From positions 73,086-137,085 of the forward strand of contig JBAYFZ010000001.1 in the NCBI GenBank assembly GCA_041666915.1: a stretch of 64,000 nt of DNA, written 5' to 3'. This document shows positions 16,857 through 29,943 of the stretch, piece by piece. Position 1 is the first letter of the stretch. Each line of letters starts with the position of its first letter. Source of the stretch: Minisyncoccota bacterium. Lineage in GTDB: Bacteria; Patescibacteriota; Minisyncoccia; Phycocordibacterales; PALSA-1337. The notes under the pieces are model-generated. The model was given only the letters and a program-made list of their open reading frames with translations. It was not told the origin of the DNA and searched no databases. A program made the translations under genes and the position numbers.

Positions 16857-17750
16857 TTATTCTCCTACTGTTATAACAAAACGTCCGTCATCTCTTTGAA
16901 TAGCGGTTAGTGACTTTTCAACATCTGTTCTTTGTTTATTTCCTTCAAAATCAACTAATTCTTCTAGTCTGTAATTACGTTGACCAGGGTATCCTGGAAT
17001 CTTGAACGTGTTTGGACTTATTAAGACTCTGGCCCTTCCTCTTTCTTGACCGCCAGGATCAATTACTATGACCTCAGCCCTTTTCCAATTCTCATTTGTT
17101 TCTTTGTTATCGGCCTCTAGTCTTTCCCATGATTGTTCTTCCGTCTCCTTTTCAATATTAGAATTTTCAATTGGTGATTGTTCAGAAGGTTGCTCTGCTA
17201 CTGCCTCAACAGGAGGGCTTTCAGTGTCGGGTTTTTCTAATATCACAGTCTCATCCTCAGAAATATCTTTTGGGACATCGGCTTTATTTATTATTACCGT
17301 CTCTGCTTCTGATGGATCAACTTCTGTAAGATTATCGGAAGTCTCTCCATTTTCCATCATAGAGATTGATGCTTGTTCATTGGTAATATCAATTTTAGGA
17401 CTCCTAAAAGCTGTGTTAGTAATGTTTCTTTCTTGTCCTTTTTTATCAAACCATTTCAATAATCTATAATTGCGCACCTTATTATCTGGATTACCACTGG
17501 GACAGAATGTATTTGGGCTCATCAGGACTTCTGCTGCCCCAGTCTTAACATTATAAGAATTGACTACATCAATAATTTCTGTTTTCCAACCTTCTGTATT
17601 TTTGTCATCAGCCCTCAATTTATCGTATTCTGCCAAACGATCAATAGACTTTGTTTTTCCTTCAGTTTCAGTTTTGTTTTCAGGAACTTCTGCCGGTACC
17701 TCTGCTGGTGTTGGTTCTACTGGTTCTGCAAATGGATTTTCGAAACTCAT
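16857..17750 (-). CDS. hypothetical acidic protein with an internal domain duplication
   Basis: Two copies of ~55-aa module (NWK..V.VI....G...VL.SPNTF..PG.P...RNYRL) separated by a D/E/S/T-rich linker. Confidence 0.5.
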   Translation of the reverse strand: MSFENPFAEPVEPTPAEVPAEVPENKTETEGKTKSIDRLAEYDKLRADDKNTEGWKTEIIDVVNSYNVKTGAAEVLMSPNTFCPSGNPDNKVRNYRLLKWFDKKGQERNITNTAFRSPKIDITNEQASISMMENGETSDNLTEVDPSEAETVIINKADVPKDISEDETVILEKPDTESPPVEAVAEQPSEQSPIENSNIEKETEEQSWERLEADNKETNENWKRAEVIVIDPGGQERGRARVLISPNTFKIPGYPGQRNYRLEELVDFEGNKQRTDVEKSLTAIQRDDGRFVITVGE

Positions 17751-17880
17751 GTTTTTGTTTGGTTAATTGAAAGGATTTTGAACTTATAACCCTATAATAC
17801 GATAATTGTAACAAATTGAGGCAATGTAAACCACTTGTTAGTGAATTCGCACAATACACAAGTAGTGTTATAATTTCCTC

Positions 17881-20634
17881 ATGAATCCTACATTTGAAGG
17901 AACAAAGATTACTAATCCACAAGAAGAATTGGCGCGTCTTCGTGAAGTAGCCGTTCAACATGCAGAGCGGGCAAAAGAAAGTGGTATAGAATTAGCTCCA
18001 CATCAAGCTGTCAACGAGACCATCAAGCAGTATGCAGAGACCAAACCAAAAGAGGTTTTACATCCAGAGTTTGCTCTAAAGTCTCATGAGACAGAAGCTA
18101 TAACTCTCCAACTCCGACCAGAGCTTCATGATCAGCAGATTGAACAACTCATAGGTGTTCTTCAAGAAAAGGGTATTCGTAACGCTATGTCAGTTTTGGA
18201 AAGAATGAATAATCCACACTTAATGGATGATTTTCATCGTTTCCTCATTCAATTTATTGCTTCTGGATATCCGATCCTTGACCTTAAGGAAAAAGATGAA
18301 CTCTGGAAACCTTTGCATATGACTCTTTTTGAAGTTAGTTTGCCAGAAGTTTTAGAAGAAAATAAGAACAAGCAGTTAAAAGAACTTATCTCTGGAATGG
18401 AACAGTTTTATTCCGCCATGCTTTCTATTTCCGATGACAAAAAGAATCCTGCTTGGTTTACTGTTGAAGTAGCCAACGCCAATGGTAGTGAAGAATTTAT
18501 TTTCTACGTTTCTGTACCGACTTCTCGCAAGGAATTATTTGAAAAGCAGATTCAGGCCATCTTTGCTGGCGCTCATGTTCATGAACATAGAGATGATTAC
18601 AATATTTTCAATGAGAAAGGCATTTCAGTTGCTTCATATGCCAGTCTGTACAAGCACTTTTTGTACCCATTGAAGTCTTACGAAAGTTTTGATGTAGATC
18701 CTCTTGGTTCTATCTTGAACAGTTTCTCTAAAATAAATCGTGAAGGAGAGGGTGCTGCTATACAGTTTGTTATTGGATCAAGAAATGATGAACTTATGAG
18801 AAGTTCAGAAAAGTCATTAGAAAAGATAAAAAAGGGAGAAAAAATAGGGGACGCTTTGAAAGAGATAGATCAGTCTGTAAGTGGCGCTATAGTCAAAGAT
18901 GTCTTCAGTATGTTCAAAAGTAAAGAAAAGATAGATAAAGAGAAAGAAGAAAAAATCAAAAGAGCTGATGCTATAGACCAGACTTCTTTGGATCAGTTTA
19001 CTCGCAAATTAAAGAGTCCTTTTGTTTCGGTCAACATCCGAATTGTAGCCTCAGCTGGTACAGAATCTGAAGCCGAAGGTATTCTCCATGATCTGGAGTC
19101 TAGTTTCAACCAATTTGAAAATGGTCATGGCAATCGTATTGCGTGGAATAAGGTTGAAAAAAGTAAGTTGGAAGATTTGTTGGAAAGATTTTCTCTTCGT
19201 ACTTTCAATGAAAAAGAACAGATTGTTTTGAATCTTGAAGAAATAACGACTTGTTTACATTTCCCAGCTACTCATGTCGGACATGTTGCGCCACAGCTCA
19301 AACAATCCAAAGCTGGTACTTCACCAGCTCCATTGGATGTTCCTAAAGAAGGAACTCTCATTGGTACAAATTTACATCGTGGAGAAGAAAACAAAGTCTT
19401 TATAGCCCCAGAAGACCGCATGCGACATTTTTATGTTATCGGTCAAACTGGTACTGGTAAGACCACTCTTTTGAAGAATATGATCATTCAAGACATCAAT
19501 GATGGACACGGTGTCTGTTTCGTAGATCCACACGGTTCTGATGTTGTAGATATTTTGGCCAATATTCCAGCCAATCGTTATCAAGATGTTGTCTATTTTG
19601 ATCCAGCTTCTACCGACAGACCGATGGCTTTGAATATGCTTGAATACGACCGACGTTTTCCTGAACAAAAAACATTCGTAATAAACGAAATGTTCAATAT
19701 TTTCCAAAAGTTATATGGTGGTACCCCAGAGTCTATGGGTCCAATCTTTGAACAATATTTCCGTAATGCTACGGGACTAGTCGTAGAAGATCCAGATTCA
19801 GGTTGTACTCTTTTGGATGTTTCGCGAGTAATGTCCAACAAAGCTTTTCGTGATTTGAAAATATCAAAATGTAAAAATCCCATCATCGTCCAGTTTTGGA
19901 AAGAGATCGCCGAGAAAGCTGGTGGGGAAGCGTCACTTGCAAACGTTGTACCGTATATCACTTCCAAGTTTGATGTATTTTTGGCAAATGAAATAATGCG
20001 ACCGATCATTGCTCAAGAAAAATCTTCATTCAATATGCGTGAAGTCATGGATAATAAAAAGATTTTGTTAGTAAATCTTTCCAAGGGAAGGTTGGGCGAC
20101 ATCAACTCTCATCTAATCGGACTTATTCTCGTAGGAAAAATACTTATGGCAGCACTCTCTCGTGTGGATTCATTTGGTAAACCTATGAATGATTTCTTCC
20201 TTTATTTGGATGAATTCCAAAATGTAACCACGGATTCTATCGCTACTATTCTTTCTGAAGCACGCAAATATCGTCTTGGACTCACCGTTGCTCATCAGTT
20301 CATAGCTCAGCTTGATGATAAGATCAAGAATGCTGTTTTTGGTAACGTTGGTTCAATGGTAGTATTCCGTGTTGGTACCGAAGATGCTGAATTTTTGGAA
20401 AAACAATTCGTGCCAACCTTCACTCATACCGATATTACAAATCTGGATAACTTCAATGCTTATGTGAAGTTGTTAGCCGGAGGTCGTCCTGTCAAACCGT
20501 TTAATGTCGTCATTGCACGTCCAGAAAAAGGTAATGCTGAACAAGTAGATAAACTCAAAGAGTTGTCGTCATTATCATTTGGTAGACCTGGGGCAGAGGT
20601 GGAGGAAGAAGTGATGAGGAAATATCAGAAATAG
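17881..20634 (+). CDS. soluble TraG/VirD4 (type IV coupling protein)-like P-loop ATPase with a ~470-aa N-terminal domain of unknown function
   Basis: RHFYVIGQTGTGKTTLL (Walker A), FVDPHGS. The C-terminal LYLDEFQNV...ARKYRLGLTVAHQFIAQL...VGTEDAEFL resembles the TraG/TraD C-terminal region. No TM helices. Confidence 0.6.
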   Translation: MNPTFEGTKITNPQEELARLREVAVQHAERAKESGIELAPHQAVNETIKQYAETKPKEVLHPEFALKSHETEAITLQLRPELHDQQIEQLIGVLQEKGIRNAMSVLERMNNPHLMDDFHRFLIQFIASGYPILDLKEKDELWKPLHMTLFEVSLPEVLEENKNKQLKELISGMEQFYSAMLSISDDKKNPAWFTVEVANANGSEEFIFYVSVPTSRKELFEKQIQAIFAGAHVHEHRDDYNIFNEKGISVASYASLYKHFLYPLKSYESFDVDPLGSILNSFSKINREGEGAAIQFVIGSRNDELMRSSEKSLEKIKKGEKIGDALKEIDQSVSGAIVKDVFSMFKSKEKIDKEKEEKIKRADAIDQTSLDQFTRKLKSPFVSVNIRIVASAGTESEAEGILHDLESSFNQFENGHGNRIAWNKVEKSKLEDLLERFSLRTFNEKEQIVLNLEEITTCLHFPATHVGHVAPQLKQSKAGTSPAPLDVPKEGTLIGTNLHRGEENKVFIAPEDRMRHFYVIGQTGTGKTTLLKNMIIQDINDGHGVCFVDPHGSDVVDILANIPANRYQDVVYFDPASTDRPMALNMLEYDRRFPEQKTFVINEMFNIFQKLYGGTPESMGPIFEQYFRNATGLVVEDPDSGCTLLDVSRVMSNKAFRDLKISKCKNPIIVQFWKEIAEKAGGEASLANVVPYITSKFDVFLANEIMRPIIAQEKSSFNMREVMDNKKILLVNLSKGRLGDINSHLIGLILVGKILMAALSRVDSFGKPMNDFFLYLDEFQNVTTDSIATILSEARKYRLGLTVAHQFIAQLDDKIKNAVFGNVGSMVVFRVGTEDAEFLEKQFVPTFTHTDITNLDNFNAYVKLLAGGRPVKPFNVVIARPEKGNAEQVDKLKELSSLSFGRPGAEVEEEVMRKYQK

Positions 20635-20711
20635 GGCGGATTTACACAGTCCTTCCTAGAAGGAACATGATAATTTGCGACCACTAGACAAAATTAACCA
20701 TTCATGTTAGT

Positions 20712-20906
20712 ATGTTAAACGGCATGAAAACAAGTAGTACAAATAAAACAGATGCCATTCTCGCTCGCTTGAAAAAACAAAGGGCGCGGGGACGGATAGA
20801 ACAGATCAACACCGATGCTCATCTTATTAGGCTCAAAGAAAAAGGCGACATTACGCAAGCTCAGTTTGATGATGTGACAGGTCGGCAAAAGGAGAAAAGT
20901 GATTAA
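20712..20906 (+). CDS. hypothetical small protein
   Basis: 64-aa ORF upstream of a bidirectional terminator; unsupported otherwise. Confidence 0.25.
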   Translation: MLNGMKTSSTNKTDAILARLKKQRARGRIEQINTDAHLIRLKEKGDITQAQFDDVTGRQKEKSD

Positions 20907-20937
20907 TATGTAAATAAAAAAATAACATAAATCAAAT

Positions 20938-20971
20938 TAAAAGGTCCCTCACAAGCTCGGGACCTTTTTTC
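20938..20971. terminator. bidirectional rho-independent terminator (AGGTCCC...GGGACCT + TTTTTT)
   Basis: 7-bp GC stem flanked by an A-run and a T-run, between convergent genes. Confidence 0.6.
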
Positions 20972-20992
20972 TTGGATTATTTACAGCAATTA

Positions 20993-21943
20993 TTATGGTT
21001 TACGATCCAGATCAATAGGAGTAAAAGATAGAAGGGAAAGGTCTTTACTCATTTGCATAGCGAAAGCGTCACCTCGGATATGTTGTTGTATTGTCTTTAT
21101 ATCCGCTCCAGCTTCTTCTGCTAATTTTTGAATGACTGCCAGAGTGTTTTTGTGCACTTCAAGAGAAGTTGTCGCGCGTTCCATGATCTCTTGCTTGTTT
21201 TGTTTATTGGCTTCAACTATGACCTTTTCCAATCTATTTATAAATACTGACAATTGAGCTTGTATTTCTCCGAAAAGGACGAAACGAAAAGGGTCTTCTT
21301 TTATCTCATTTCTAACCGATTCTGTTATGGCAGAACCGTTCATGATTTCAAAACTGTATGATACTAGACGCTCTAGAGACTCGTGTCCAGCTCCTACTAC
21401 AATTCTTGGTAATTTAAAATTCTTAACTTGACCTGTCTTTTCTGATTCAAAATATTTGACTGCTGGTGTATAGCCAAGGTCAATGTCATCAAATGTTCGG
21501 CGTAACTTTTCTCCGATATCATTTGTGCCCGTGGCAAAATCTATGGCGAAACCGAGATGCTCTGAATGCTTGGGATCAATCTCAATCTGAGCGACAGAAT
21601 CTATACCTCTAACAAAGTCATCGTATTGTGAAGTTACGATCATTTTGACTTTTTCAGCAAGCCAACCATAATTTTCCATTACATTACGAAATGCGAATTC
21701 TGCCGCTAAACCTCTTTCAGATTGCTCACGTCGTTCTTCGTTTTGAGAATTCCTCCTATTTTCAAATTTATGTTTAAGAACGTCACAAGTTTTGATATCT
21801 TTATCAATCTCTTGTTCACTAAAATGTTTATGACCTCGGAAACTTTCTAGTTTGATACGTTTCTCGTCTATTTCTTCGTTTACTTTCTCAATGTCCAACA
21901 ATTCCTTGACACCAGCCTCTTCTGTAGATTTGAATGATTCCAT
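20993..21943 (-). CDS. hypothetical protein (316 aa)
   Basis: Long ORF with consistent codon usage, 12 nt downstream of the 21956-22300 ORF (likely an operon). No family recognised. Confidence 0.5.
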   Translation of the reverse strand: MESFKSTEEAGVKELLDIEKVNEEIDEKRIKLESFRGHKHFSEQEIDKDIKTCDVLKHKFENRRNSQNEERREQSERGLAAEFAFRNVMENYGWLAEKVKMIVTSQYDDFVRGIDSVAQIEIDPKHSEHLGFAIDFATGTNDIGEKLRRTFDDIDLGYTPAVKYFESEKTGQVKNFKLPRIVVGAGHESLERLVSYSFEIMNGSAITESVRNEIKEDPFRFVLFGEIQAQLSVFINRLEKVIVEANKQNKQEIMERATTSLEVHKNTLAVIQKLAEEAGADIKTIQQHIRGDAFAMQMSKDLSLLSFTPIDLDRKP

Positions 21944-21955
21944 ATTATTATATTA

Positions 21956-22300
21956 TTATAAAGGCATTTCTCCAGTTTCTATTTGGTGATGTACGTCTTC
22001 AAGTGTAATGTTCTTTATATTACCTTGAAATCTTGGGTGTGTTTGAAATGCGGGGTTATGGACGATATCACTAAAAGCTTTTGACCATTTTGAATTGTTT
22101 GCCCATTCAAATGTAATACTTTCCAATCGGTCATGATCTAGTGTTTCTTCTGGATGTTCTGTTACGAATTTTTCTACCGCCAGTTGCATCTGACGAAGGT
22201 TATAATTGCTCGATGGGGGACCGTCTAGAAGTTTATTAATTTCAGCACCAACATCTTTTGCTTTAGGTGTTTCTGCTGGTGATGATTCTGTGTAGTTCAT
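21956..22300 (-). CDS. hypothetical protein (114 aa)
   Basis: ORF upstream of, and co-oriented with, the 316-aa ORF. No family recognised. Confidence 0.45.
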   Translation of the reverse strand: MNYTESSPAETPKAKDVGAEINKLLDGPPSSNYNLRQMQLAVEKFVTEHPEETLDHDRLESITFEWANNSKWSKAFSDIVHNPAFQTHPRFQGNIKNITLEDVHHQIETGEMPL

Positions 22301-22406
22301 GGCTCAATAATACACCTGATTGGAGTTGTTGTTAAATGTATGTGTATGAAAGTAAAAAAATTAGGCCGCCATTCAGTTAAGAATGACGACCTAGTGAGGC
22401 GGGAGA

Positions 22407-22814
22407 TTACCTGTGGTAACCGTACACGCCAGAATGTTGTTGTCGTGGTGCCGGCGCCTGTCGTTCGGTCTTGAGACCGTACGTGTGCGCCGTCCTCTCC
22501 ATAAAGTACCGTTGAGAATTCATTGGTACCGTTATGATCGGGTACCCGGAGTGAGTGGGTACAAATCGAGGAGACGGTTGACATGGCGCCGGTGCCACAT
22601 AGACTCGTTGCACTGGAGCGTAACTATAGACTGGTTGATGAACTACAACAGGTCGCGCTGGGACATATACGACTGGCGGAGGAGTCCGACAGAACGAAGA
22701 TCCGTTCCCGCTACCAATCCGGACACTAACCCCGAAGCTCAATTGGGCTTGGGTAGTATTGGCCATAGCCAATAGAACAACCGCAAAGCAAGCAGATTTA
22801 ATCAAAGTTTTCAT
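22407..22814 (-). CDS. secreted proline-rich protein (signal peptide), encoded in a GC-rich island
   Basis: MKTLIKSACFAVVLLAMANTTQA signal-like N-terminus followed by a PV-rich sequence. Local GC is well above the surrounding ~35%. The opposite-strand ORF at 22413-22775 is probably an artefact of the GC richness. Confidence 0.45.
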   Translation of the reverse strand: MKTLIKSACFAVVLLAMANTTQAQLSFGVSVRIGSGNGSSFCRTPPPVVYVPARPVVVHQPVYSYAPVQRVYVAPAPCQPSPRFVPTHSGYPIITVPMNSQRYFMERTAHTYGLKTERQAPAPRQQHSGVYGYHR

Positions 22815-23045
22815 TGTACAATCTTTCTCTTTTATCCCAAGGTTATCTTGAGATTTCTGTTACCATTATAGCATGTTTAATACCCAAAAGTCAAGCTCAT
22901 TTTTGACCCTACTTGAAAGAACTGTGGAAAACCTATACACTGCTTGGGTAGTAGAAAGTAGGGTTTTGTAGGGGCCTGCCCTGCGAAGCTCTGACTGTAA
23001 AGAAGAGCGAAGCCCTCCTTCGTTAAAACTACGAAGGGTAAACAG

Positions 23046-23117
23046 GGCCTTATCGTCTAATGGTTAGGACACGGCCTTCTCAAGGCTGTAATCCGGGTTC
23101 GACTCCCGGTAAGGTCA
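23046..23117 (+). tRNA. tRNA-Glu (anticodon CUC)
   Basis: Cloverleaf with acceptor GGCCTTA/TAAGGTC (one G-U) and D-arm GTCT/GGAC. Anticodon stem CGGCC/GGCTG with loop TTCTCAA. T-arm CCGGG-TTCGACT-CCCGG. No encoded CCA. Confidence 0.8.
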
Positions 23118-23212
23118 CAAATTTTTTAGAGCTAAGTAGAGCCAAATATTTTTTATACTAAAGAACTTATACACTGTTCAGGTCTATTTTTGTATTGTAA
23201 AGTTACGGTAAT

Positions 23213-24622
23213 ATGAAAAATTTACAGAAAGGTTTTGTTGTTCAAAGTATAATTGGATTATTAACTCTACTCCTTATTGCTGGTGGGGCATATTATGCAG
23301 GGACGTTAAAAAAATTGACTTCTATAATTGATAAAGATTTCGTTGAAGATAGTAATATGGATAGTTTAGTACAAGAGAAGGGAGATATCCTTATTAGACA
23401 ATTACCTATATCAACATCTACACTAAATTTAGTAAACGTCGAATTGCTCCCAACTCCTCATAGGGGAGCAAATATAACTGAGTTTTCTTTAGGACAAGTT
23501 TTTGAGATATCTACGATTTTTAATATGAGCAATAGTTTGTCAGAAATTGATCTAAAAAATATTAATATTGAAGTATCGGTACCTGACGGTCGTGTCGTAG
23601 CTGTTATTGAACTTGAATGTGAGAAAACTCAAAATATTTTCTATTGTGCAAATAATGTGTGGAATACGAGTAATTTACAAAGCGGGCAGAAGCAGTATAA
23701 ATTTAGTGTAAGTGGCACAGATTCACTTAAGAAGAAAGTCCTAGGTTCTATTGTCCGCGAATTTACATTTAAGGATGTATCAAAAAATTTATGTAAAGCA
23801 GTGTACTCTCAAAACAATATTGATAATGTTAATGAAAACAAATTTAATTTAGTTTTTGTTGGAAGTGGATACTCTAATGTAATTGGAGAATCATTTTCAG
23901 AAGTTTTCACAAAAGTTTCATCTAAATTAATAGATCTCAATGCTATTGGCCATGGACTTTTTTCCATTGATCCTTTCAGAGGTAATAAAGATCTTTTTAA
24001 TTTTTGGTATATAGATAAATCATATCCTCTTGAACAATGTACGCTTATAAATAATTCTTGTCCAAGAGAAGACATTTTAAAATTAGCTGAGAATTGTCAA
24101 TACCCAAATTCTTATGTTGTGGAGGTTCATGATAGAAATGCATACGATCAAGAGGTTGGGGCTTCAGCCAGAAGTATTGTGGTTGCAATGCCGTACTTCA
24201 AGTTTTCAGATCCTACACAATTCGCAGATATTGACTCTCTCCAAAGAACATTTGTTCATGAATTTGGGCATACTTTTTCGGATCTTGGTGATGAATATGT
24301 GCTTTTTCCTGAACAAAAATCGACTCCTGTCCAGATAAATATTCAGAAACTGAAGTCGATTTTTCAAGCCCAGAAAAATATTTTTTATGGTACTTTAAAT
24401 GAATGTCAAAAAGAAGCCCCTTGGCGTAACATTGCCGGCACAGGATGCTTTGAAGGGGCTGGGAAAATTGGTTTTAATGCTTTTAGACCGACAGAGAATT
24501 CCCTGATGCGTGATCAATTTCTTGATCCGTTTACTTTTGGGGCATACAACTCTTCTCTTATTATTAAGACATTTGATCATTTCCTAATTAAATCAAAAAT
24601 AATAAATAGTGAGAATTTGTAG
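23213..24622 (+). CDS. secreted/membrane-anchored zinc metallopeptidase, M64 (IgA-peptidase-like) family candidate
   Basis: N-terminal hydrophobic anchor. HEFGHTFSDLGDEY (HExxH...DEY signature typical of M64). Confidence 0.55.
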   Translation: MKNLQKGFVVQSIIGLLTLLLIAGGAYYAGTLKKLTSIIDKDFVEDSNMDSLVQEKGDILIRQLPISTSTLNLVNVELLPTPHRGANITEFSLGQVFEISTIFNMSNSLSEIDLKNINIEVSVPDGRVVAVIELECEKTQNIFYCANNVWNTSNLQSGQKQYKFSVSGTDSLKKKVLGSIVREFTFKDVSKNLCKAVYSQNNIDNVNENKFNLVFVGSGYSNVIGESFSEVFTKVSSKLIDLNAIGHGLFSIDPFRGNKDLFNFWYIDKSYPLEQCTLINNSCPREDILKLAENCQYPNSYVVEVHDRNAYDQEVGASARSIVVAMPYFKFSDPTQFADIDSLQRTFVHEFGHTFSDLGDEYVLFPEQKSTPVQINIQKLKSIFQAQKNIFYGTLNECQKEAPWRNIAGTGCFEGAGKIGFNAFRPTENSLMRDQFLDPFTFGAYNSSLIIKTFDHFLIKSKIINSENL

Positions 24623-24692
24623 TCCTGAAAGCTACGCAATAGGGTCACAGAATTATGTTATAATTGGTCTTATTAGAAAAACATAAAAAATC

Positions 24693-24962
24693 ATGAGTTC
24701 ATCTTTTAAGGGTATTATAAGTGTTATTATTTCTGCTATTTTCTTTTTCCCTTGGGTGTGGATGGGTATTTTCCATATTAAGTTGCCTGCTCTTGTGGCA
24801 TTGATGATTGGATTGGTTGCGGCAATTATCGCCGTTATGTTTGGATCTCAGGCCAGAAAGGGAGGTTCTAGAATATGGGGAACAGCAGGTCTGACATTGG
24901 GGATAATTTCTACGGTCTTGAATGTGGTCAATATAATTGCAGTTGCTTTAAGCCGTGCGTAA
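24693..24962 (+). CDS. small membrane protein (2 TM)
   Basis: 89-aa hydrophobic ORF. Confidence 0.4.
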   Translation: MSSSFKGIISVIISAIFFFPWVWMGIFHIKLPALVALMIGLVAAIIAVMFGSQARKGGSRIWGTAGLTLGIISTVLNVVNIIAVALSRA

Positions 24963-25156
24963 AAAACTTATTGTTATCGCAATAGTTAGTTAAAGTAGCG
25001 TATACTCCTCATAATATTTATGGTTTATATGCGCTGATATATTTTGTGTCATTTTTTATACTTTTCTATCTTTATATTTTTTTAACAAAATAAAGGTCAA
25101 TAATACCTTCTATATTTATGGTATGATTTAATTTATGTAATGGTAAGAGATAAGAC

Positions 25157-26368
25157 ATGAGTAAAATTAACATCACCAAACCACATAAAATCATTTTAAC
25201 ATCTTGTTTTGTTGTTATAGTACTTGGTGTTGTGGCGTATCTTTTCTCAAGAAATGTAAGCTCACCTGTCTCAGAATTTGTTTCAACTGATACGGTTGTT
25301 GTGGCAACTACATCGGATTCATTGATGGTATCTTTGGTGAACATGACGACAACTGTTGTTGATACAACAGATTGGACTAGTGGCTCTGATTCCAATTTTG
25401 ATATTTCATTTAAATATCCTACGAACTGGGTTATATCAACGACTAGTGATAAAAGAGGTATCTACTCCTTAACTGTTACTGATTCTTCGTGGGGTAGTGA
25501 TTTTAAAAATCAGGTTAAGATATCATTTACGAGTCATCAGAATTGCAGCGGAAATGGGTATGATCAACCTGAAATTTTGGGCTTAAAAGTAAGCGATGGT
25601 AAGTGGAGTTACAACAAAACATCTATAGGTAGGACACTTTGTTTCCCAGATAAACAATTTTATATAAGAATGACGGCTGTTTCGGCTCAAGCAAAAAATA
25701 TAGCCGAGCAGATACTTTCGACTATAAAATTCAATCCGGTAGCTGAAAATTCATGGAAGAAATTCTTCGATAGGACTTTGGGGTTGGAGTTTGAATATCC
25801 TGCTTATTTGGGACATGTTATCGTCGAAAAAGCAAATTCAATGAGTTGTCCAGAGATGAAGACGTACGCTCGGAATGGGCAATTGGAAGCAGAGGATTAT
25901 CTTATCTGGTTTTCAAACCTTCAGCATATCGGTACAAGTACGTCTTATGTGGAATACTATATTCCTCTCATAAAAACCGAAAACAGTACGATGGTATGCG
26001 GAATTGATTTGGTTGAGCTTCGTAAGAATTTAGCTTCGAATCCTCAGTATCAATCATCAGCATTTCCACAATTGTATGCCACGGATGCTTATGTTTCGAC
26101 TATAGGTACTACCATTGGGACGTCTGCTAATCAGTTTTATACTTTATATTTTATAAAGCGTAATTCTATGGTAGTTATTCAGCCAGATATCAGGTTTATG
26201 CCGGTTGCGAATTCGAATGAGGAAAATGAGATAGTACAGAAGGAAACTACGAAGGATATGTATTCTTCAATCATTAATTATGTACTTAAGAGTGATAGTG
26301 CTAAGCCGATAAGGAATTACATGGATGATTTTAAAAAGGTTGTAGCTAGTATGAAAATCGTTGATTAA
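25157..26368 (+). CDS. hypothetical membrane-anchored/secreted protein (403 aa)
   Basis: N-terminal TM helix then a T/S/V-rich region and a large extracytoplasmic domain. No family recognised. Confidence 0.5.
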   Translation: MSKINITKPHKIILTSCFVVIVLGVVAYLFSRNVSSPVSEFVSTDTVVVATTSDSLMVSLVNMTTTVVDTTDWTSGSDSNFDISFKYPTNWVISTTSDKRGIYSLTVTDSSWGSDFKNQVKISFTSHQNCSGNGYDQPEILGLKVSDGKWSYNKTSIGRTLCFPDKQFYIRMTAVSAQAKNIAEQILSTIKFNPVAENSWKKFFDRTLGLEFEYPAYLGHVIVEKANSMSCPEMKTYARNGQLEAEDYLIWFSNLQHIGTSTSYVEYYIPLIKTENSTMVCGIDLVELRKNLASNPQYQSSAFPQLYATDAYVSTIGTTIGTSANQFYTLYFIKRNSMVVIQPDIRFMPVANSNEENEIVQKETTKDMYSSIINYVLKSDSAKPIRNYMDDFKKVVASMKIVD

Positions 26369-26413
26369 AATATAATCCACATAAATTTTTAAAGATGTGG
26401 TAAAATTTAGTCC

Positions 26414-26791
26414 ATGTCAAGTTTAAAAGAAAAATCATATTATCTAATAGCGAACATTTGGATTATGGTCGTAATTGGATTTGGTGTGCTTTTGTATGGA
26501 AAAGCTTTTAATTTTATTACAGGCCCAATAGCTGAAACTTTTGATAATATTTCTTTGTATATTATCTCTGCACTTTTCATATTTATCATGGTTGGGCACG
26601 TAATCCTTGCTAAGAGAAATGGCAAAATTTCTGAAATTTTTATTGAAGGAGGTTATAGTGGGTACTCTTGTTCGTGGACAATAGATGAGAATAAGGATTT
26701 TGAAGTATTTTGGGGCACAATAAAAACCTGGCTTTTTATGATTGCTTTGTATGTTATCGGTATAATTTTTCTTTTCTTCTTAGGTAAATGA
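26414..26791 (+). CDS. small membrane protein (3-4 TM)
   Basis: 125-aa hydrophobic ORF. Confidence 0.4.
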   Translation: MSSLKEKSYYLIANIWIMVVIGFGVLLYGKAFNFITGPIAETFDNISLYIISALFIFIMVGHVILAKRNGKISEIFIEGGYSGYSCSWTIDENKDFEVFWGTIKTWLFMIALYVIGIIFLFFLGK

Positions 26792-26927
26792 TTCAAGCGA
26801 TATCTTTATTTTTTTATGTAATTTCTATCAGTCATCAATTTTGAAAGCCAACCTAATGGTTCACACTCTCAAAATAAAAAGCAAAGAGTATTTCATCTTT
26901 GCTTTCGTGTGAATTGATCTAGTTTTT

Positions 26928-27212
26928 TTAGATTGCTTCAATGGTACTTCCGTAGACATCAAAGCCTTTGCCTATTGTCAGAACCCCACTATTTCTTGTT
27001 TCGATCTTGAGCTCCCCATGATCGAGAATCAGGGTACCTGTAAGGTCTCCGGTCCAGTCGCCCTCATTTTCTACATGGAACGAGACTCTTTTTCCAATAA
27101 GCGATCTGTCTGTAAACCTAAAGATGCGCTTGGTCATCGGTTTGGCCACCGGTATTCTACGTTTTTTAGTTTTCATACATTTCTTAAGTCTGATTGCATT
27201 ATGTACATTCAC
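26928..27212 (-). CDS. hypothetical protein
   Basis: 94-aa ORF with a basic N-terminus; weak support. Confidence 0.3.
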   Translation of the reverse strand: MNVHNAIRLKKCMKTKKRRIPVAKPMTKRIFRFTDRSLIGKRVSFHVENEGDWTGDLTGTLILDHGELKIETRNSGVLTIGKGFDVYGSTIEAI

Positions 27213-27261
27213 TACGACTAAGTCAATGGTAAGAGTTTTTTGATATCTTCTCTGCTATACT

Positions 27262-27717
27262 TTGATTATGATAGACATCCGTAAAAGAGTCATTGAAGTC
27301 CTGAGCAACACTCATCTTATGAGTTTAGGCACATCAGATAAAAATGGTGTTTGGGTTGCGGATGTCATCTTTGTATACGATGACGATTTGAATATTTATT
27401 GGTTATCAAGTCCAGATTGCAGACATTCAAAAGCTATAATGGAAAATGATAAAGTTTCTGGAACTATTACTCTCAGCACTAATAAAAAAGAGCCAAATCT
27501 CGGTATTCAATTTGAAGGAAAGGCAGAAAGATTGGAAGGTGTTAGAATTGATCTGATTGCTAAGCATTGGACAAAGAGAAGTCATAGAATTCCTGACATT
27601 TGCAAAGCTTTAGAAGTTTTAGATGGTGATTGTTGGTACAAATTGACGCCAACAATGATTGGGCTTATTGATGAAAAAAATTTTGGTTTTGATAGACAAG
27701 AGTTGAAAATAGTCTAA
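27262..27717 (+). CDS. pyridoxamine 5'-phosphate oxidase-like FMN-binding split-barrel protein
   Basis: HLMSLGTSDKNGVWVADVIFVYDDDLNIYWLS pattern typical of the PNPOx/general stress protein 26 family. Confidence 0.55.
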   Translation: MIMIDIRKRVIEVLSNTHLMSLGTSDKNGVWVADVIFVYDDDLNIYWLSSPDCRHSKAIMENDKVSGTITLSTNKKEPNLGIQFEGKAERLEGVRIDLIAKHWTKRSHRIPDICKALEVLDGDCWYKLTPTMIGLIDEKNFGFDRQELKIV

Positions 27718-27726
27718 AAAATAACC

Positions 27727-28170
27727 ATGAACATAACAATAATCTCCCCGGGAAAACCAAAAAATTATCTAGGTGAAGATGTTGTTTTGGAGTATACGTC
27801 ACGCATTGCTCATTATTCTCCAATTGAATGGAAATTTATATCGCCATCGGATATGAAGGAAGAAGGTGAGAAAATGATGAAAATTATTCCTGACAATTCC
27901 TACGTAGTTTTACTTGATGAAAAAGGGAAGTCACTTGATTCTATAGGTTTCTCTGAATTTATAGGTAAGCGTCTGAATGAAAGTGTAAAAAACTTAGTTT
28001 TTATAATTGGTGGTGCCTACGGCATTGATGATAAGGTCAAAGAAAAAGCCAATTTTTCCATATCACTTTCGGCACTCGTTTTTCCACATGAACTTGCAAG
28101 GAGTATTTTATCGGAGCAGATATATAGAGGTTTTACGATACTCAAAGGTGAGAAATATCACCATAAGTAG
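27727..28170 (+). CDS. rlmH: 23S rRNA (pseudouridine1915-N3)-methyltransferase RlmH (SPOUT)
   Basis: LVFIIGGAYGIDDKVKEKANFSISLSALVFPHELARSILSEQIYRGFTILKGEKYHH matches the RlmH C-terminal knot region. Confidence 0.85.
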   Translation: MNITIISPGKPKNYLGEDVVLEYTSRIAHYSPIEWKFISPSDMKEEGEKMMKIIPDNSYVVLLDEKGKSLDSIGFSEFIGKRLNESVKNLVFIIGGAYGIDDKVKEKANFSISLSALVFPHELARSILSEQIYRGFTILKGEKYHHK

Positions 28171-28218
28171 GCGAGTAGCAATATTGAACTAACCCTTTTC
28201 TGTAAATTCAAACTTCAT

Positions 28219-28247
28219 AAAATGTGACGGATTTTCCGTCACATTTT
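28219..28247. terminator. bidirectional terminator-like palindrome AAAATGTGACGGATTTTCCGTCACATTTT
   Basis: Perfect 11-bp stem with an A-tract before and a T-tract after. A near-identical sequence recurs at 42129-42158. Confidence 0.5.
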
Positions 28248-28343
28248 CATAAGTTGTTTAAGTAGAAAAGTGCTCTGGTTTAGGCTCGGGTTTTTCTTTT
28301 TGAAACATGATATTATTTAATAAAGTTTTAAATTTCTATTTAA

Positions 28344-29009
28344 ATGAAGACAAATGATTTTAGTCCAATTCCTCGTGATTTCTCAGAGATTTTCTTGATT
28401 GTTGTTAACCTGTTACCTTTGTTTGGTGTATGGTTTTTGGGTTGGAATTTACCAGATGTATTTATTTTGTATTGGGCTGAGAGTGCTATTATAGGTTTCT
28501 TTTGGTTTTTTAAATTAATTTGTGCATTTATTTTAGATAAGACTAAGTTTAAACGGTTTCCTAAGTTATTTTTGTTTTTCTTATTTCTCTTAATACATTT
28601 TGGCGGTTTTATGTTCGGCCATTTGATTGCTATACTTTCCGGTTTGATATTTAAAGGCAAAGGAGTTGAACTTAGTGTGATGTTTATTTATTTTAAAGAC
28701 ACTATAATAACACTCTTAATACCGCTTGCACTTCTTTTTATAAGTCATGGAGTATCCTTTGTGCAAAATTTTATCTTGAGTCAAGAATATAAGGTGTGGA
28801 TAGAAAGACAAGATAAAATTAAATCGATTCCTCCGTATGGCAGAATCATAATAATGCACATATCGGTATTTTTGATCGCGTTTTTAATGAACGCAGGTGA
28901 AGTATGGTTACCACTTTCATCGTTATTAATAATTTTTACAAAGATTTTTACGGATTTGAGAGCGCATAGAAAAGAACATCAAAAAGTAATACGACAAGGA
29001 ACAATTTAA
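28344..29009 (+). CDS. polytopic membrane protein (about 6 TM), unknown function
   Basis: 221-aa highly hydrophobic ORF. Confidence 0.5.
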   Translation: MKTNDFSPIPRDFSEIFLIVVNLLPLFGVWFLGWNLPDVFILYWAESAIIGFFWFFKLICAFILDKTKFKRFPKLFLFFLFLLIHFGGFMFGHLIAILSGLIFKGKGVELSVMFIYFKDTIITLLIPLALLFISHGVSFVQNFILSQEYKVWIERQDKIKSIPPYGRIIIMHISVFLIAFLMNAGEVWLPLSSLLIIFTKIFTDLRAHRKEHQKVIRQGTI

Positions 29010-29479
29010 TACAAAAAAAGACCGACCTGTAAGGATCGGTCAATTCGGAGCAGGGGGATCTAGTTTAGGCTTATCACAAACGTCCTGTTTCTGGGAATAT
29101 TTGAGACGGATTTGTGCAGTATGACTCCGGCCGGAAGACATAATACACTTGGGATAATCGGGCCACTTAACTCGGAATTGACCAGCCTTCTGGTCAACTG
29201 TTTGATTTATATCAGAATATTTCTATCCTGACATCATCCTATTCTTCGCAAAACAATAGTCCCGCCTCGCTTTAGCGAAATCGGAATAACTGTAGAATAG
29301 AATTAAGCGGTCATTTCACCTGATGTTGGAGATTTCCCACGACACCTCTTTTGCACGTTTTGCATTCGCACAGGTAAGGGGTTTAGCCTGTTCTCTTTTT
29401 AAAGGAGAATCGAATAATCTTTGTTCAAAGAACCATCCTGCCAATGGTTAGTATATCTACGACTTATTTTTTGTCAATA

Positions 29480-29884
29480 TTACCTCCAAGCTCCAATAAT
29501 AGCCCCGCCAATAGTGAGAACCACCAAGTTGTTGATGGCATCTATGAGAACTAGAGTGAATGATTCTCTTTTCCAAAGAAGTCCAGAAAGTAAAGATGGA
29601 ATGACAAAACCTAGCCAGACCAATAATCCCAAGAAGGCACCATCGGTGGAACTTCTAACACTGGCCATACTGATAAGAAAAGCCAAGACCGAGAAAGTGA
29701 TGAGGGTAATGAAGAATTGAGCGATGTATGATTTCCAAACAGTTTTTGGATTTATAGTTTTCATATCGGTACCGGATAGGGCAACCCATTCTTTACCGAA
29801 TAGTATAGGGGAGTACCAGAGTGAGCTTATGGCGAAACTTGCTAGAGAAGCGACTAATATTGGCAGATAATTTATAGGGTTCAT
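29480..29884 (-). CDS. membrane protein (4 TM), unknown function
   Basis: 134-aa hydrophobic ORF. The overlapping + strand ORF 29421-29720 is rejected. Confidence 0.5.
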   Translation of the reverse strand: MNPINYLPILVASLASFAISSLWYSPILFGKEWVALSGTDMKTINPKTVWKSYIAQFFITLITFSVLAFLISMASVRSSTDGAFLGLLVWLGFVIPSLLSGLLWKRESFTLVLIDAINNLVVLTIGGAIIGAWR

Positions 29885-29943
29885 GTTGGCTAATTTGCTA
29901 TATTATTTAGTATGTTAGAATGGTAGCATAACTTTTTATAAAA

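What the first reader, a model, noticed from the sequence alone, without database searches (positions are those of the whole stretch)
17881..22300. Soluble TraG/VirD4-like ATPase with a novel 470-aa N-terminal domain, convergent with a two-gene operon of unknowns
The 917-aa protein carries a coupling-protein-type P-loop (VIGQTGTGKTTLL, FVDPHGS). Its C-terminal region resembles the TraG/TraD C-terminal domain (LDEFQNV...ARKYRLGLTVAHQFIAQL). It has no transmembrane anchor, and its large N-terminal domain matches nothing I recognise. No other conjugation or T4SS genes are nearby. Instead, the adjacent minus-strand genes (21956-22300 and 20993-21943, 12-nt spacing) are unknowns. They are followed by a GC-rich secreted proline-rich gene. 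An orphan T4CP-like translocase ATPase of this kind could belong to a DNA-uptake or export, defence, or episome-maintenance system not yet described.
Basis: partly seen in the sequence, partly recalled or inferred. Interest (0 to 1): 0.6.

Follow-up and report, generated by a model that had tools for sequence, protein, structure and literature searches.

The report
Orphan coupling-protein-like ATPase of Paceibacteria
The 917-residue protein is a real, catalogued but uncharacterised ATPase related to the "coupling proteins" of conjugation machines; it is conserved across one large group of ultra-small bacteria, and it does not form a three-gene system with its neighbours.

Summary
The "novel" N-terminal domain is already in Pfam as DUF8128 (PF26449). 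The C-terminal half passes Pfam thresholds for VirD4/TraG/TrwB-type coupling-protein domains. An AlphaFold model matches R388 VirB4 (TrwK) over its whole length and TrwB over the motor domain.

The family is large: more than 1,956 full-length homologues at 57-84% identity, and hits in 252 species-representative genomes, all labelled as Patescibacteria or unclassified MAGs. It is not mobile. In the more distant relatives the gene sits between map and ndk, just after rplO-secY-adk (31/42 and 28/38 loci). A 2025 paper already reported 5,713 VirD4-type homologues in 2,918 Patescibacteria genomes, mostly far from virB4 and possibly exapted.

The proposed three-gene unit fails. The 114-aa gene has 4 relatives in the protein search and 3 more by tblastn. 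The 316-aa gene has 22 and occurred in 1 of 80 ATPase loci. This pair lies beside the ATPase in 6 of about 11 lineages.

Most likely role: a detached coupling or docking ATPase of the Patescibacteria type IV secretion system, or an exapted DNA translocase. This is a new member of a known kind, of moderate to low interest.

The parts
17846..17874 (+). Promoter-like site (TTCGCA-17-TATAAT with an upstream TG). It ends 7 nt before the ATG and no Shine-Dalgarno sequence is visible, so the transcript may be leaderless.
   Evidence: Consensus scan and sequence read. This is a consensus match only, not shown to function.
17881..20634 (+). 917-aa DUF8128 / coupling-protein-like ATPase (whole ORF).
   Evidence: ORF list. 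More than 1,956 homologues of 57-84% identity and about the same length. AF2 model with mean pLDDT 78.3.
17881..18270 (+). N-terminal all-helical module (residues 1-130). It carries invariant P80-E81-x-H83-D84 and H113/D117/R120 in an NPHLxDDFHRF motif. In an ~800-aa subfamily a single TM helix takes its place.
   Evidence: Model helices 13-128. Invariant columns. TM-helix-starting relatives. A separate 146-aa ORF in L091 carries the NPHL motif (E 1e-5).
18271..19290 (+). DUF8128 alpha/beta core (about residues 131-470), with a low-confidence Lys/Glu-rich helical linker at about residues 322-376.
   Evidence: PF26449 is annotated on homologues. The representative search found 962 clusters at 50% identity. 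Secondary structure from the model. The domain profile has no sequence match in the PDB.
19291..20634 (+). VirD4/TrwB-like ATPase domain (residues 471-917). It includes an all-helical insertion (about residues 596-724) between the Walker motifs and a TraG-D_C-type C-terminal part.
   Evidence: Pfam and NCBIfam hits. Foldseek match to TrwB: E 7e-11, TM (target) 0.61-0.69 over about 440 columns. PDB profile hit to TrwB.
19441..19464 (+). Walker A / P-loop GQTGTGKT (residues 521-528), invariant across the family.
20197..20214 (+). Walker B region FLYLDE (residues 773-778; D777 and E778 invariant). It is followed by invariant R795-K796-Y797 and H805-Q806.
   Evidence: Invariant columns. Alignment to the Walker B of TrwB.
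20724..20906 (+). It lies tail-to-tail with the 316-aa gene.
   Evidence: Sequence. Homologous ORFs of about 59 aa sit in the same tail-to-tail position in L006, L081, L082, L085, L086, L089 and L092. No Pfam hit.
20939..20971 (.). Bidirectional intrinsic-terminator-like hairpin (AAAAGGTCCC...GGGACCTTTTTT) between the convergent 60-aa and 316-aa genes.
   Evidence: RNA fold -17.4 kcal/mol, z = -4.44, 0 of 200 shuffles as stable.
20993..21943 (-). 316-aa protein of unknown function, with a confident alpha/beta-plus-helical model. Invariant acidic and His residues are E81, D107, D108, D114, H128 and D134, plus K145.
   Evidence: 22 homologue clusters. Alignment A2. AF2 pLDDT 89.5, pTM 0.88. No significant PDB or BFVD fold match. 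Genomic contexts.
21956..22300 (-). 114-aa protein of unknown function, 12 nt upstream of the 316-aa gene. Restricted to a few close relatives.
   Evidence: 4 clusters in the 5.8-billion-protein search. tblastn hits only in L004, L009 and L089. No Pfam hit.
22362..22393 (-). Strong terminator-like hairpin (13-bp stem plus T-run). It separates the 135-aa gene from the 114/316 pair.
22407..22814 (-). 135-aa secreted-looking Pro/Val-rich protein, 52% GC. It is a separate transcription unit and not part of the ATPase story.
   Evidence: No homologue in the 80 related loci.

Best explanation
The 917-aa protein belongs to the DUF8128 / VirD4-like ATPase family. This is a branch of the VirB4/VirD4 (FtsK-HerA superfamily) ring ATPases.

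Shown:
- The C-terminal half (residues 471-917) is a TrwB/VirD4-type motor. It has intact Walker A and Walker B motifs and an all-helical insertion between them.
- Instead of the usual two-helix membrane anchor, it has a helical module (residues 1-130) followed by the DUF8128 alpha/beta domain (residues 131-470). This gives an overall two-domain, membrane-anchor-less layout like VirB4.
- The gene is chromosomal, vertically inherited and very strongly conserved in Paceibacteria-type Patescibacteria. In most of the more distant relatives it lies between map and ndk, at the end of the ribosomal-protein/secY/adk cluster. In this genome it lies next to the mraZ-mraW-ftsI-murF cluster.
- It is not part of a three-gene operon with its downstream neighbours.

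Inferred:
- It forms a hexameric ring that uses ATP to feed a polymer substrate (DNA or unfolded protein) through its central channel.
- It most likely acts as the detached coupling or docking ATPase of the chromosomal, conjugation-derived type IV secretion system that Patescibacteria encode elsewhere. The soluble DUF8128 domain would replace the membrane anchor as the docking surface.

The identity and family assignment is about 0.9 certain. The T4SS-linked mechanism is about 0.45.
For: Family and motor:
- Pfam T4SS-DNA_transf, TrwB_AAD_bind, TraG-D_C and DUF87 all score above their gathering cut-offs.
- The best NCBIfam hits are TraD/VirD4-type models.
- Walker A, Walker B and the RKY and HQ motifs are invariant in 45 sequences.
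- The AF2 model has mean pLDDT 78.
- Foldseek matches TrwK/VirB4 at E 1.8e-14 over 890-940 aligned columns. It matches TrwB at E 7e-11 with TM (target) 0.61-0.69. Cagbeta, DotL and HerA follow.

N-terminal domain:
- DUF8128 is annotated on all listed homologues.
- 962 representative clusters carry the N-domain. In the full-length representatives the domain is at the N-terminus of proteins of about 790-1,120 aa.

Membrane link in relatives:
- The ~800-aa subfamily starts with a TM helix.

T4SS link in relatives:
- In Bacillus phage G the homologue gp156 lies directly after a VirB4-like ATPase (gp155: P-loop_TraG, AAA_10). It is also near a TrbL/VirB6-like protein (gp153) and a Replic_Relax protein (gp146).

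Core-gene status:
- More than 1,956 homologues and 252 species-representative genomes.
- map lies upstream in 31/42 loci and ndk downstream in 28/38 loci of the clades below 65% identity.

Literature:
- VirB4-type T4SSs occur in 2,417 of 3,035 Patescibacteria assemblies.
- 5,713 VirD4-type homologues occur in 2,918 genomes, only 148 of them near virB4 (PMC12102498).
- The T4SS is essential in the saccharibacterium Southlakia (PMC12857230).
Against: - No T4SS gene lies near the ATPase in the window or in any of the 80 related loci.
- The Microbial Genomics paper notes that the VirD4 homologue of Southlakia was not essential while the T4SS genes were, and that exaptation cannot be excluded. Whether that protein is a DUF8128 type was not checked.
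- Membrane-anchored relatives sit next to DNA-metabolism genes: dnaX, UDG, exonuclease III-like and xseAB in L090, and rmuC and a Mur ligase in L091. They do not sit next to T4SS genes.
- The similarity of the N-domain to the VirB4 N-domain rests only on the length and E-value of Foldseek alignments (TM 0.29-0.33, rmsd about 14 A). No sequence or profile evidence supports it.
- Scores against curated T4CP equivalog models are far below their cut-offs.
Confidence: 0.5

Rival explanations
1. Exapted housekeeping DNA translocase. The ATPase no longer works with a secretion channel. It acts instead on the cell's own or incoming DNA, for example in chromosome segregation or resolution at division, recombination or repair, or DNA import.
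For: - Sequence conservation is extreme for a Patescibacteria protein: 68% mean column identity, with long invariant stretches.
- The genomic contexts are housekeeping. Examples are rplO-secY-adk-map-[gene]-ndk and the dcw cluster in this window and in L045, L062, L063, L067 and L068.
- Membrane-anchored relatives sit beside dnaX, UDG, xseAB and rmuC.
- The literature explicitly leaves exaptation open and reports the Southlakia VirD4 homologue as non-essential for epibiotic growth.
- There is a weak NCBIfam hit to the archaeal DNA-importing ATPase CedD (E 1e-4, P-loop region only).
Against: - Gene neighbourhood next to ribosomal genes says little about function.
- No DNA-binding domain (such as the FtsK gamma domain) was detected.
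- A comEC deletion did not affect viability in Southlakia, so DNA import is not an essential nucleotide source there.
- In phage G the family member sits in a T4SS-like module.
- Whether these genomes lack FtsK could not be tested (one search was uninformative).
Confidence: 0.3
2. Accessory-module reading, a weakened form of the first reader's idea. The ATPase works alone in most genomes, but in a few lineages it has a functional partner: the 316-aa protein together with the 60-aa protein encoded tail-to-tail with it. The 316-aa protein might be a nuclease-like effector or regulator.
For: - The 316-aa homologue lies within 3 kb of the 3' end of the DUF8128 ATPase in the window, L006, L081, L082, L088 and L092.
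- It does so in both orientations: co-directional with a 10-nt gap in L082 and L092, convergent elsewhere.
- Among the other window genes tested (11.9-33 kb), none is found in L081-L089. The called genes of L092 show no such synteny either.
- The ~59-aa ORF accompanies it in 8 loci.
- Where the ATPase is not adjacent, the neighbour is a PIF1-type helicase in L093 and L094, which also hints at DNA.
- Non-significant fold hits include several PD-(D/E)xK nucleases: NucC, Can2, TnsA, UL24 and phage PD-(D/E)XK proteins.
Against: - The 316-aa family has 22 clusters against more than 1,956 for the ATPase, and was found in 1 of 80 species-representative ATPase loci.
- It is absent from the ATPase flank in L083/L084, L086, L093, L094 and the P0127 locus.
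- Convergent orientation excludes co-transcription in the window.
- The 3' flank of the ATPase is a variable region in this clade, so repeated insertion there is an alternative.
- All fold matches are above E = 0.05.
Confidence: 0.12
3. Anti-phage defence ATPase (HerA- or MADS-like), or a remnant of a conjugative or mobile element.
For: - PADLOC hit to mad8 of the MADS system (E 1.3e-15, residues 513-863) and weak HerA hits.
- PHROG family phrog_5156 matches nearly full length (E 3.5e-86).
- Homologues occur in large Bacillus phages.
- The flanks contain lineage-specific genes and a 52% GC gene.
Against: - No other defence-system or mobile-element genes were found among the four flanking genes scanned (297-, 316-, 114- and 135-aa).
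- The gene is present in at least 252 species representatives with conserved housekeeping synteny. Its GC content equals the genome average (38.5%).
- This pattern is the opposite of the patchy distribution expected for defence or mobile genes.
- No relaxase, integrase or T4SS genes are nearby.
Confidence: 0.04

Closest known systems
VirD4/TrwB/TraG/TraD type IV coupling proteins (T4CP)
   Same: - RecA-like P-loop motor with the same Walker A and B context (GxTGxGKT ... DPxG ... hhhhDE ... RK ... HQ).
- All-helical insertion between the Walker motifs.
- TraG-D_C-type C-terminal part.
- Pfam T4CP domains score above threshold.
- TM (target) 0.61-0.69 to TrwBdeltaN70.
   Different: - No N-terminal transmembrane domain.
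- A 470-aa soluble N-terminal extension instead.
- Not encoded next to a relaxase or T4SS.
- Far below the cut-offs of curated T4CP equivalog models.
- Behaves as a core chromosomal gene rather than a plasmid or ICE gene.
VirB4 (TrwK of R388)
   Same: - Two-domain, anchor-less architecture of about 800-900 aa: an N-terminal alpha/beta domain plus a TrwB-like C-terminal ATPase.
- Best Foldseek E-values (1.8e-14), with alignments spanning about 900 columns.
   Different: - No match to the VirB4 N-terminal Pfam domain in 27 diverse family members.
- TIGR00929 scores only E 0.04.
- The motor is closer in sequence to VirD4-type models.
- Patescibacteria have a separate bona fide VirB4, usually near dnaA.
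Pfam DUF8128 (PF26449) proteins, PHROG phrog_5156, and Bacillus phage G gp156 / SPO1 gp27.4
   Same: - Same family and same architecture (DUF8128 core plus VirD4-like ATPase).
- Function is unknown for all of them.
   Different: - The window protein adds a 130-aa helical N-terminal module.
- Other members start with a TM helix or directly with the DUF8128 core (phage G gp156).
- The phage G copy sits in a T4SS-like module. The window copy does not.
HerA / FtsK translocases
   Same: Same ASCE P-loop superfamily. There is a DUF87 hit at the P-loop and Foldseek hits at E about 1e-10.
   Different: - No HerA_C or FtsK_SpoIIIE match above threshold.
- No NurA-type or Sir2-type partner.
- No FtsK membrane or gamma domains.

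Membership tests
VirD4/TraG-type coupling protein (T4CP) | P-loop motor domain recognised by the T4CP profile models | tested here: met
   Pfam T4SS-DNA_transf scores 34.4 bits (GA 20.1) over residues 514-815. TrwB_AAD_bind scores 24.1 (GA 20.5). TraG-D_C scores 22.9 (GA 22). The curated NCBIfam equivalogs are not reached: the best, TIGR03743, scores 57 bits against a cut-off of 366.
VirD4/TraG-type coupling protein (T4CP) | N-terminal transmembrane anchor | tested here: not met
   There is no hydrophobic 19-residue window in residues 1-500. The only peak is at 741-759, inside the ATPase domain. An ~800-aa subfamily of the same family does begin with a TM helix.
VirD4/TraG-type coupling protein (T4CP) | All-alpha domain inserted between Walker A and Walker B | tested here: met
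   The model shows only helices between residues 596 and 724. The structural match to TrwB covers about 440 columns. This rests on a prediction.
VirD4/TraG-type coupling protein (T4CP) | Encoded with, or functionally tied to, a relaxase or T4SS | tested here: not met
   No T4SS or relaxase gene was found among the window ORFs scanned or as a recurrent neighbour in the 80 related loci. The feature is met only for the distant phage G homologue. A functional tie in trans cannot be tested here.
VirB4 | VirB4 N-terminal domain (CagE_TrbE_VirB) and a VirB4-type profile match | tested here: not met
   No Pfam VirB4 N-domain hit in the window protein or in 26 diverse relatives. TIGR00929 scores E 0.04, 12 bits against a cut-off of 643.
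VirB4 | Two-domain fold superposable on VirB4 | tested here: inconclusive
Pfam DUF8128 (PF26449) | Match to the DUF8128 model in the N-terminal half | tested here: inconclusive
   The model is not in the local Pfam copy, so the window protein could not be scored directly. Homologues of 57-84% identity over the full length all carry the precomputed PF26449 hit. Membership is therefore inferred with high confidence.
HerA / FtsK | HerA_C or FtsK_SpoIIIE domain above threshold, with partner nuclease or membrane and gamma domains | tested here: not met
   HerA_C scores 13 bits (cut-off 22). FtsK_SpoIIIE scores 16.4 (cut-off 24). NF040819 HerA scores 12.8 (cut-off 970). No NurA-type or Sir2-type neighbour was found.
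MADS / HerA-type defence systems | Co-located companion genes of the system and a patchy distribution | tested here: not met
   Only the ATPase hits mad8 (E 1.3e-15). The neighbours have no relevant PADLOC hits. The distribution is broad, with conserved housekeeping synteny.

The most novel reading that the evidence does not exclude
DUF8128 ATPases could be a third, so far unnamed branch beside VirB4 and VirD4. In this reading a VirB4-like soluble N-domain is fused to a VirD4-like motor. In Paceibacteria the protein would have become an indispensable, secretion-independent translocase of DNA or another polymer, tied to growth functions (ribosomal, adk, ndk and dcw contexts). The 316-aa/60-aa tail-to-tail pair would be a nuclease-like accessory module that specifically associates with the ATPase or targets its 3' flank.
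Probability: 0.2. Interest if true: 0.7.

Novelty: new member of a known kind. Interest (0 to 1): 0.35.

Why it matters
Patescibacteria are a very large, mostly uncultured bacterial group with tiny genomes. A 917-residue protein kept at 55-85% identity across many of them is probably important for their biology. Their type IV secretion system has been shown to be essential for epibiotic growth in one saccharibacterium, yet what it transports and how substrates are fed to it are unknown.

Knowing whether this anchor-less VirD4-like ATPase serves that machine, or has been redeployed on the cell's own DNA, would bear directly on that question.

For the scan itself, the result is mainly a correction:
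- The protein family and its orphan location are already recorded.
- The proposed three-gene system does not hold.

Tried and rejected
- A profile of the DUF8128 core (alignment A4) found only chance matches (E >= 0.34) against all PDB sequences.
- hhalign of A4 against the VirB4-like gp155 of phage G gave no signal.
- A Pfam scan of 27 diverse family members gave no VirB4 N-domain hit.
- The literature library holds no paper mentioning PF26449 or DUF8128.
This sample is biased and the result is uninformative.
- The small proteins upstream of the membrane-anchored relatives in L090 and L091 are not homologous to each other. Only the L091 protein resembles part of the window protein's N-terminal module.
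- The 316-aa model has no significant fold match in the PDB or BFVD. The PD-(D/E)xK idea is only a lead.
- The defence and mobile-element readings were considered and rejected on distribution and synteny.
- I considered an HD-phosphohydrolase-like reading of the conserved H/D residues in the N-terminal helical module. There is no profile support for it, so I make no claim.

Full report
**1. Observation**

The window is a 38.5% GC chromosomal segment. It carries SMC, MreB, two PBPs, LysRS, mraZ-mraW-ftsI-murF, a class II ribonucleotide reductase, MurJ, LepA, enolase, RF-1 and PheT. The 316-aa and 114-aa proteins are identical to entries named Candidatus Paceibacterota bacterium on a 450,810-nt contig.

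ORF 17881-20634 (+) encodes 917 aa.

No transmembrane segment is predicted in the N-terminal half. The single hydrophobic peak (residues 741-759) is a predicted helix inside the ATPase domain.

The two minus-strand genes (316 aa and 114 aa, 12 nt apart) are as described. So is the 52% GC, Pro/Val-rich, signal-peptide-bearing 135-aa gene.

A 60-aa ORF lies at 20724-20906 (+). A bidirectional terminator hairpin lies at 20939-20971 (z = -4.4), between the ATPase and the 316-aa gene. A strong terminator at 22393-22362 also separates the 135-aa gene from the 114/316 pair.

**2. What the protein is**

*C-terminal half (residues 471-917).* It passes the Pfam gathering thresholds of T4SS-DNA_transf, TrwB_AAD_bind, TraG-D_C and DUF87. 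Its best NCBIfam matches are TraD/VirD4-type models, although far below their equivalog cut-offs. A profile of 45 homologues finds only TrwB among solved structures.

*N-terminal half.* It has no hit in the local Pfam copy. Every listed homologue, however, carries a precomputed hit to PF26449, which another tool names DUF8128. The domain is therefore catalogued, though of unknown function. No paper in the library mentions it.

*Distribution of the N-domain.* Searched alone, it finds 962 clusters at 50% identity. In the full-length representatives it sits at the N-terminus of proteins of about 790-1,120 aa.

*Variation at the extreme N-terminus.*
- A subfamily of about 800 aa lacks the first ~130 residues of the window protein and begins with one transmembrane helix instead.
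- In one such locus (L091), a separate 146-aa ORF overlaps the ATPase start by 4 nt. It carries the conserved "G..A....NPHL.D..H" motif of window residues 89-124.
- Phage G gp156 begins directly with the DUF8128 core.

The architecture is thus modular: [helical module, TM helix, or nothing] + DUF8128 core + VirD4-like motor.

**3. Structure**

With a 45-sequence alignment, AlphaFold2 gives mean pLDDT 78.3. The model has four parts:
- a helical bundle (residues 13-128);
- an alpha/beta domain (147-458), interrupted by a low-confidence charged linker;
- a beta-hairpin leading into the P-loop;
- a RecA-type core with an all-helical insertion (596-724).

Foldseek against the PDB ranks R388 TrwK/VirB4 first (E 1.8e-14). 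These alignments span 890-940 columns, that is, both domains. TrwB follows (E 7e-11, TM normalised to target 0.61-0.69, about 440 columns), then HerA, Cagbeta and DotL.

The better E-value and double length of the VirB4 alignments suggest that DUF8128 resembles the VirB4 N-domain. The overall TM is low (0.29-0.33), as expected if only one domain superposes. No sequence or profile method supports the link. The libraries needed for a domain-level test were not available. I treat "VirB4-like layout" as suggested, not shown.

**4. Distribution and context**

The word-indexed protein search returned more than 1,956 homologues. The best 120 are 57-84% identical over the full length and nearly all are 912-936 aa. 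The species-representative genome scan confirmed 252 genomes, and 80 loci were fetched.

Conservation is very high: 68% mean column identity, with long invariant blocks in the motor domain.

De novo clustering of neighbouring ORFs shows the following (identities by Pfam; counts):
- In relatives below 65% identity, the gene lies immediately after rplO-secY-adk-map and before ndk, a 143-aa membrane protein and a beta-CASP hydrolase.
- map lies upstream in 31/42 informative loci, and ndk downstream in 28/38.
- In the window's own clade (65% identity or more) this arrangement is lost (0/17 and 0/23), and the flanks are variable.
- The window shares an mraZ-mraW-ftsI upstream context with five distant loci.
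- In close relatives the RNR genes lie 2-4 kb downstream. In the window they are about 10 kb away, so 20.6-29.9 kb is a variable insertion zone that includes tRNA-Glu.

Two membrane-anchored relatives lie beside dnaX, UDG, an exonuclease III-like gene and xseAB (L090), and beside a Mur ligase and rmuC (L091).

None of these loci has T4SS genes next to the ATPase. This is the pattern of a vertically inherited core gene, not of a defence island or mobile element.

**5. The neighbours**

*The three-gene unit fails.* Among the 80 ATPase loci, the 316-aa gene was found once and the 114-aa gene twice. The 316-aa family has 22 clusters in 5.8 billion proteins. The 114-aa family has 4, plus three further tblastn hits in L004, L009 and L089.

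*A narrower association is real.* I looked at the problem from the side of the rare gene. Its homologue lies within 3 kb of the 3' end of a DUF8128 ATPase in the window, L006, L081, L082, L088 and L092. It does not in L083/L084, L086, L093, L094 and the P0127 locus.
- The adjacency occurs in both orientations, with a 10-nt co-directional gap in L082 and L092.
- In L081-L089, no other tested window gene (11.9-33 kb) is found. The called genes of L092 show no such synteny either.
- A homologue of the missed 60-aa ORF lies tail-to-tail with the 316-aa homologue in 8 loci, including loci without the ATPase.
- The conserved unit is therefore the 316-aa/60-aa pair.
- In L093 and L094 the 316-aa gene is divergent from a PIF1-type helicase.

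*The 316-aa protein.* It models confidently (pLDDT 89.5, pTM 0.88) but has no significant fold match. Several PD-(D/E)xK nucleases appear among the non-significant hits, and the invariant residues are E81, D107, D108, D114, H128, D134 and K145. That makes a nuclease-like core a lead, nothing more.

**6. Relatives outside Patescibacteria**

- PHROG phrog_5156 (unknown function) matches residues 163-914 (E 3.5e-86).
- tblastn finds homologues in 40 phage records, 39 of them from phages of Bacillus and related genera (G, SPO1-like and others).
- In phage G, the homologue gp156 directly follows gp155, a VirB4-like ATPase (P-loop_TraG, AAA_10). It lies near gp153 (TrbL_4, VirB6-like) and gp146 (Replic_Relax).

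Here the family occupies the place of a coupling protein in a monoderm-type T4SS-like module. This is the best evidence that its ancestral partner is a T4SS.

PADLOC gives a hit to mad8 of the MADS system (E 1.3e-15), but no companion genes are present.

**7. Comparison with what is known**

Quinonero-Coronel et al. (Microb Genom 2025, PMC12102498) report the following:
- VirB4 in 2,417 of 3,035 Patescibacteria assemblies, often near dnaA.
- 5,713 VirD4-type homologues in 2,918 genomes, only 148 of them near virB4.
- The Southlakia homologue was not essential whereas T4SS genes were, so exaptation "cannot be ruled out".

A 2025 review confirms that the T4SS is essential in Southlakia and that comEC is dispensable there (PMC12857230).

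The orphan VirD4-like ATPases of this phylum are thus already on record. What I did not find there is the DUF8128 architecture, the loss of the anchor, the map-ndk synteny and the phage G module. The library holds no paper naming DUF8128 or PF26449.

**8. Mechanism and verdict**

*Shown:* family, domain layout, intact catalytic motifs, absence of an anchor, core-gene distribution, and non-conservation of the trio.

*Inferred:* a hexameric ATP-driven translocase.

*Most likely role (about 0.45):* the detached coupling or docking ATPase of the chromosomal Patescibacteria T4SS, using DUF8128 in place of a membrane anchor.

*Main rival (about 0.3):* an exapted DNA translocase with a housekeeping role, favoured by the contexts and the Southlakia result.

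*Lesser readings:* a functional link to the 316-aa/60-aa pair in a few lineages (about 0.12), and defence or a mobile remnant (about 0.04).

The finding is a new member of a known, catalogued but uncharacterised kind. Interest 0.35.

Noticed in passing
window 20724-20906 (+); also L006 14174-14329, L081 9024-9200, L082 6223-6402, L085 1119-1241, L086 8971-9129, L089 900-1073, L092 6943-7122: A conserved small ORF of about 59-60 aa (basic N-terminus, with a shared pattern L.RLK...R...L..LK..G.I[ST].[EA]Q[FY]..V.G). It always lies tail-to-tail with the 316-aa gene family, including in loci without the ATPase. It has no Pfam hit. In the window a bidirectional terminator hairpin (20939-20971) sits between the two genes.
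   Followed up: partly
L093 4316-5980 and L094 4274-5947: Where the 316-aa homologue is not next to the DUF8128 ATPase, it is divergently adjacent (20-54 nt) to a PIF1-type helicase with an HTH_40 domain. L081 also has a PIF1 helicase a few genes away. L093 additionally carries four T4SS_pilin/TrbC genes about 4 kb away.
   Followed up: no
L095 (Bacillus phage G, JN638751.1 84946-99063): A T4SS-like module in a 497-kb phage: gp146 Replic_Relax (homologue of SPO1 gp27.3), gp153 TrbL_4 (VirB6-like), gp155 VirB4-like ATPase, and gp156 DUF8128-type ATPase (deposited as 'MsbA-like'). SPO1-like phages carry the homologue as gp27.4.
   Followed up: partly
window 22407-22814 (-): The 135-aa secreted-looking Pro/Val-rich gene is 52% GC in a 38.5% GC window, with long ORFs on the opposite strand as well. 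It has its own strong terminator (22393-22362) and no homologue in 80 related loci. It is probably foreign or fast-evolving DNA.
   Followed up: partly
window 20635-29943: This is a variable zone between the ATPase and the DUF192-RNR genes. It is about 10 kb here against 2-4 kb in the closest relatives. It contains tRNA-Glu (23046-23118), an M64-like peptidase (23213-24622) and several ORFs without homologues in the 80 loci.
   Followed up: partly
window 16857-17750 (-): A 297-aa very acidic protein with an internal duplication (two copies of a motif like '[MI]SPNTF...G.P...RNYRL'). It has no Pfam hit and no homologue in the related loci.
   Followed up: no
L001, L004, L006, L007, L013, L018, L019 (just downstream of the ATPase); L026 (upstream): In the window's clade, a 422-aa helical protein of unknown function often follows the ATPase co-directionally (7 of these loci), followed in L001, L004, L007, L013 and L019 by a 96-aa protein of unknown function. 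In L026 the pair lies between map and the ATPase. Both are absent from the window. Neither has a Pfam hit.
   Followed up: partly
L041 2798-5569 and 9598-11670: Two DUF8128 ATPase paralogues (56% and 53% identical to the window protein) lie 4 kb apart in one genome. L016 and L018 show the gene split by a frameshift.
   Followed up: no
window 2934-3998 (+): A RhuM-family protein (Pfam Virulence_RhuM, E 4.6e-104), a family often found on prophage or island DNA. It sits between SMC and MreB.
   Followed up: no
window 17846-17881: A good -10 box (TATAAT with an upstream TG) ends 7 nt before the ATG of the ATPase gene, with no Shine-Dalgarno sequence. The mRNA may be leaderless.
   Followed up: no
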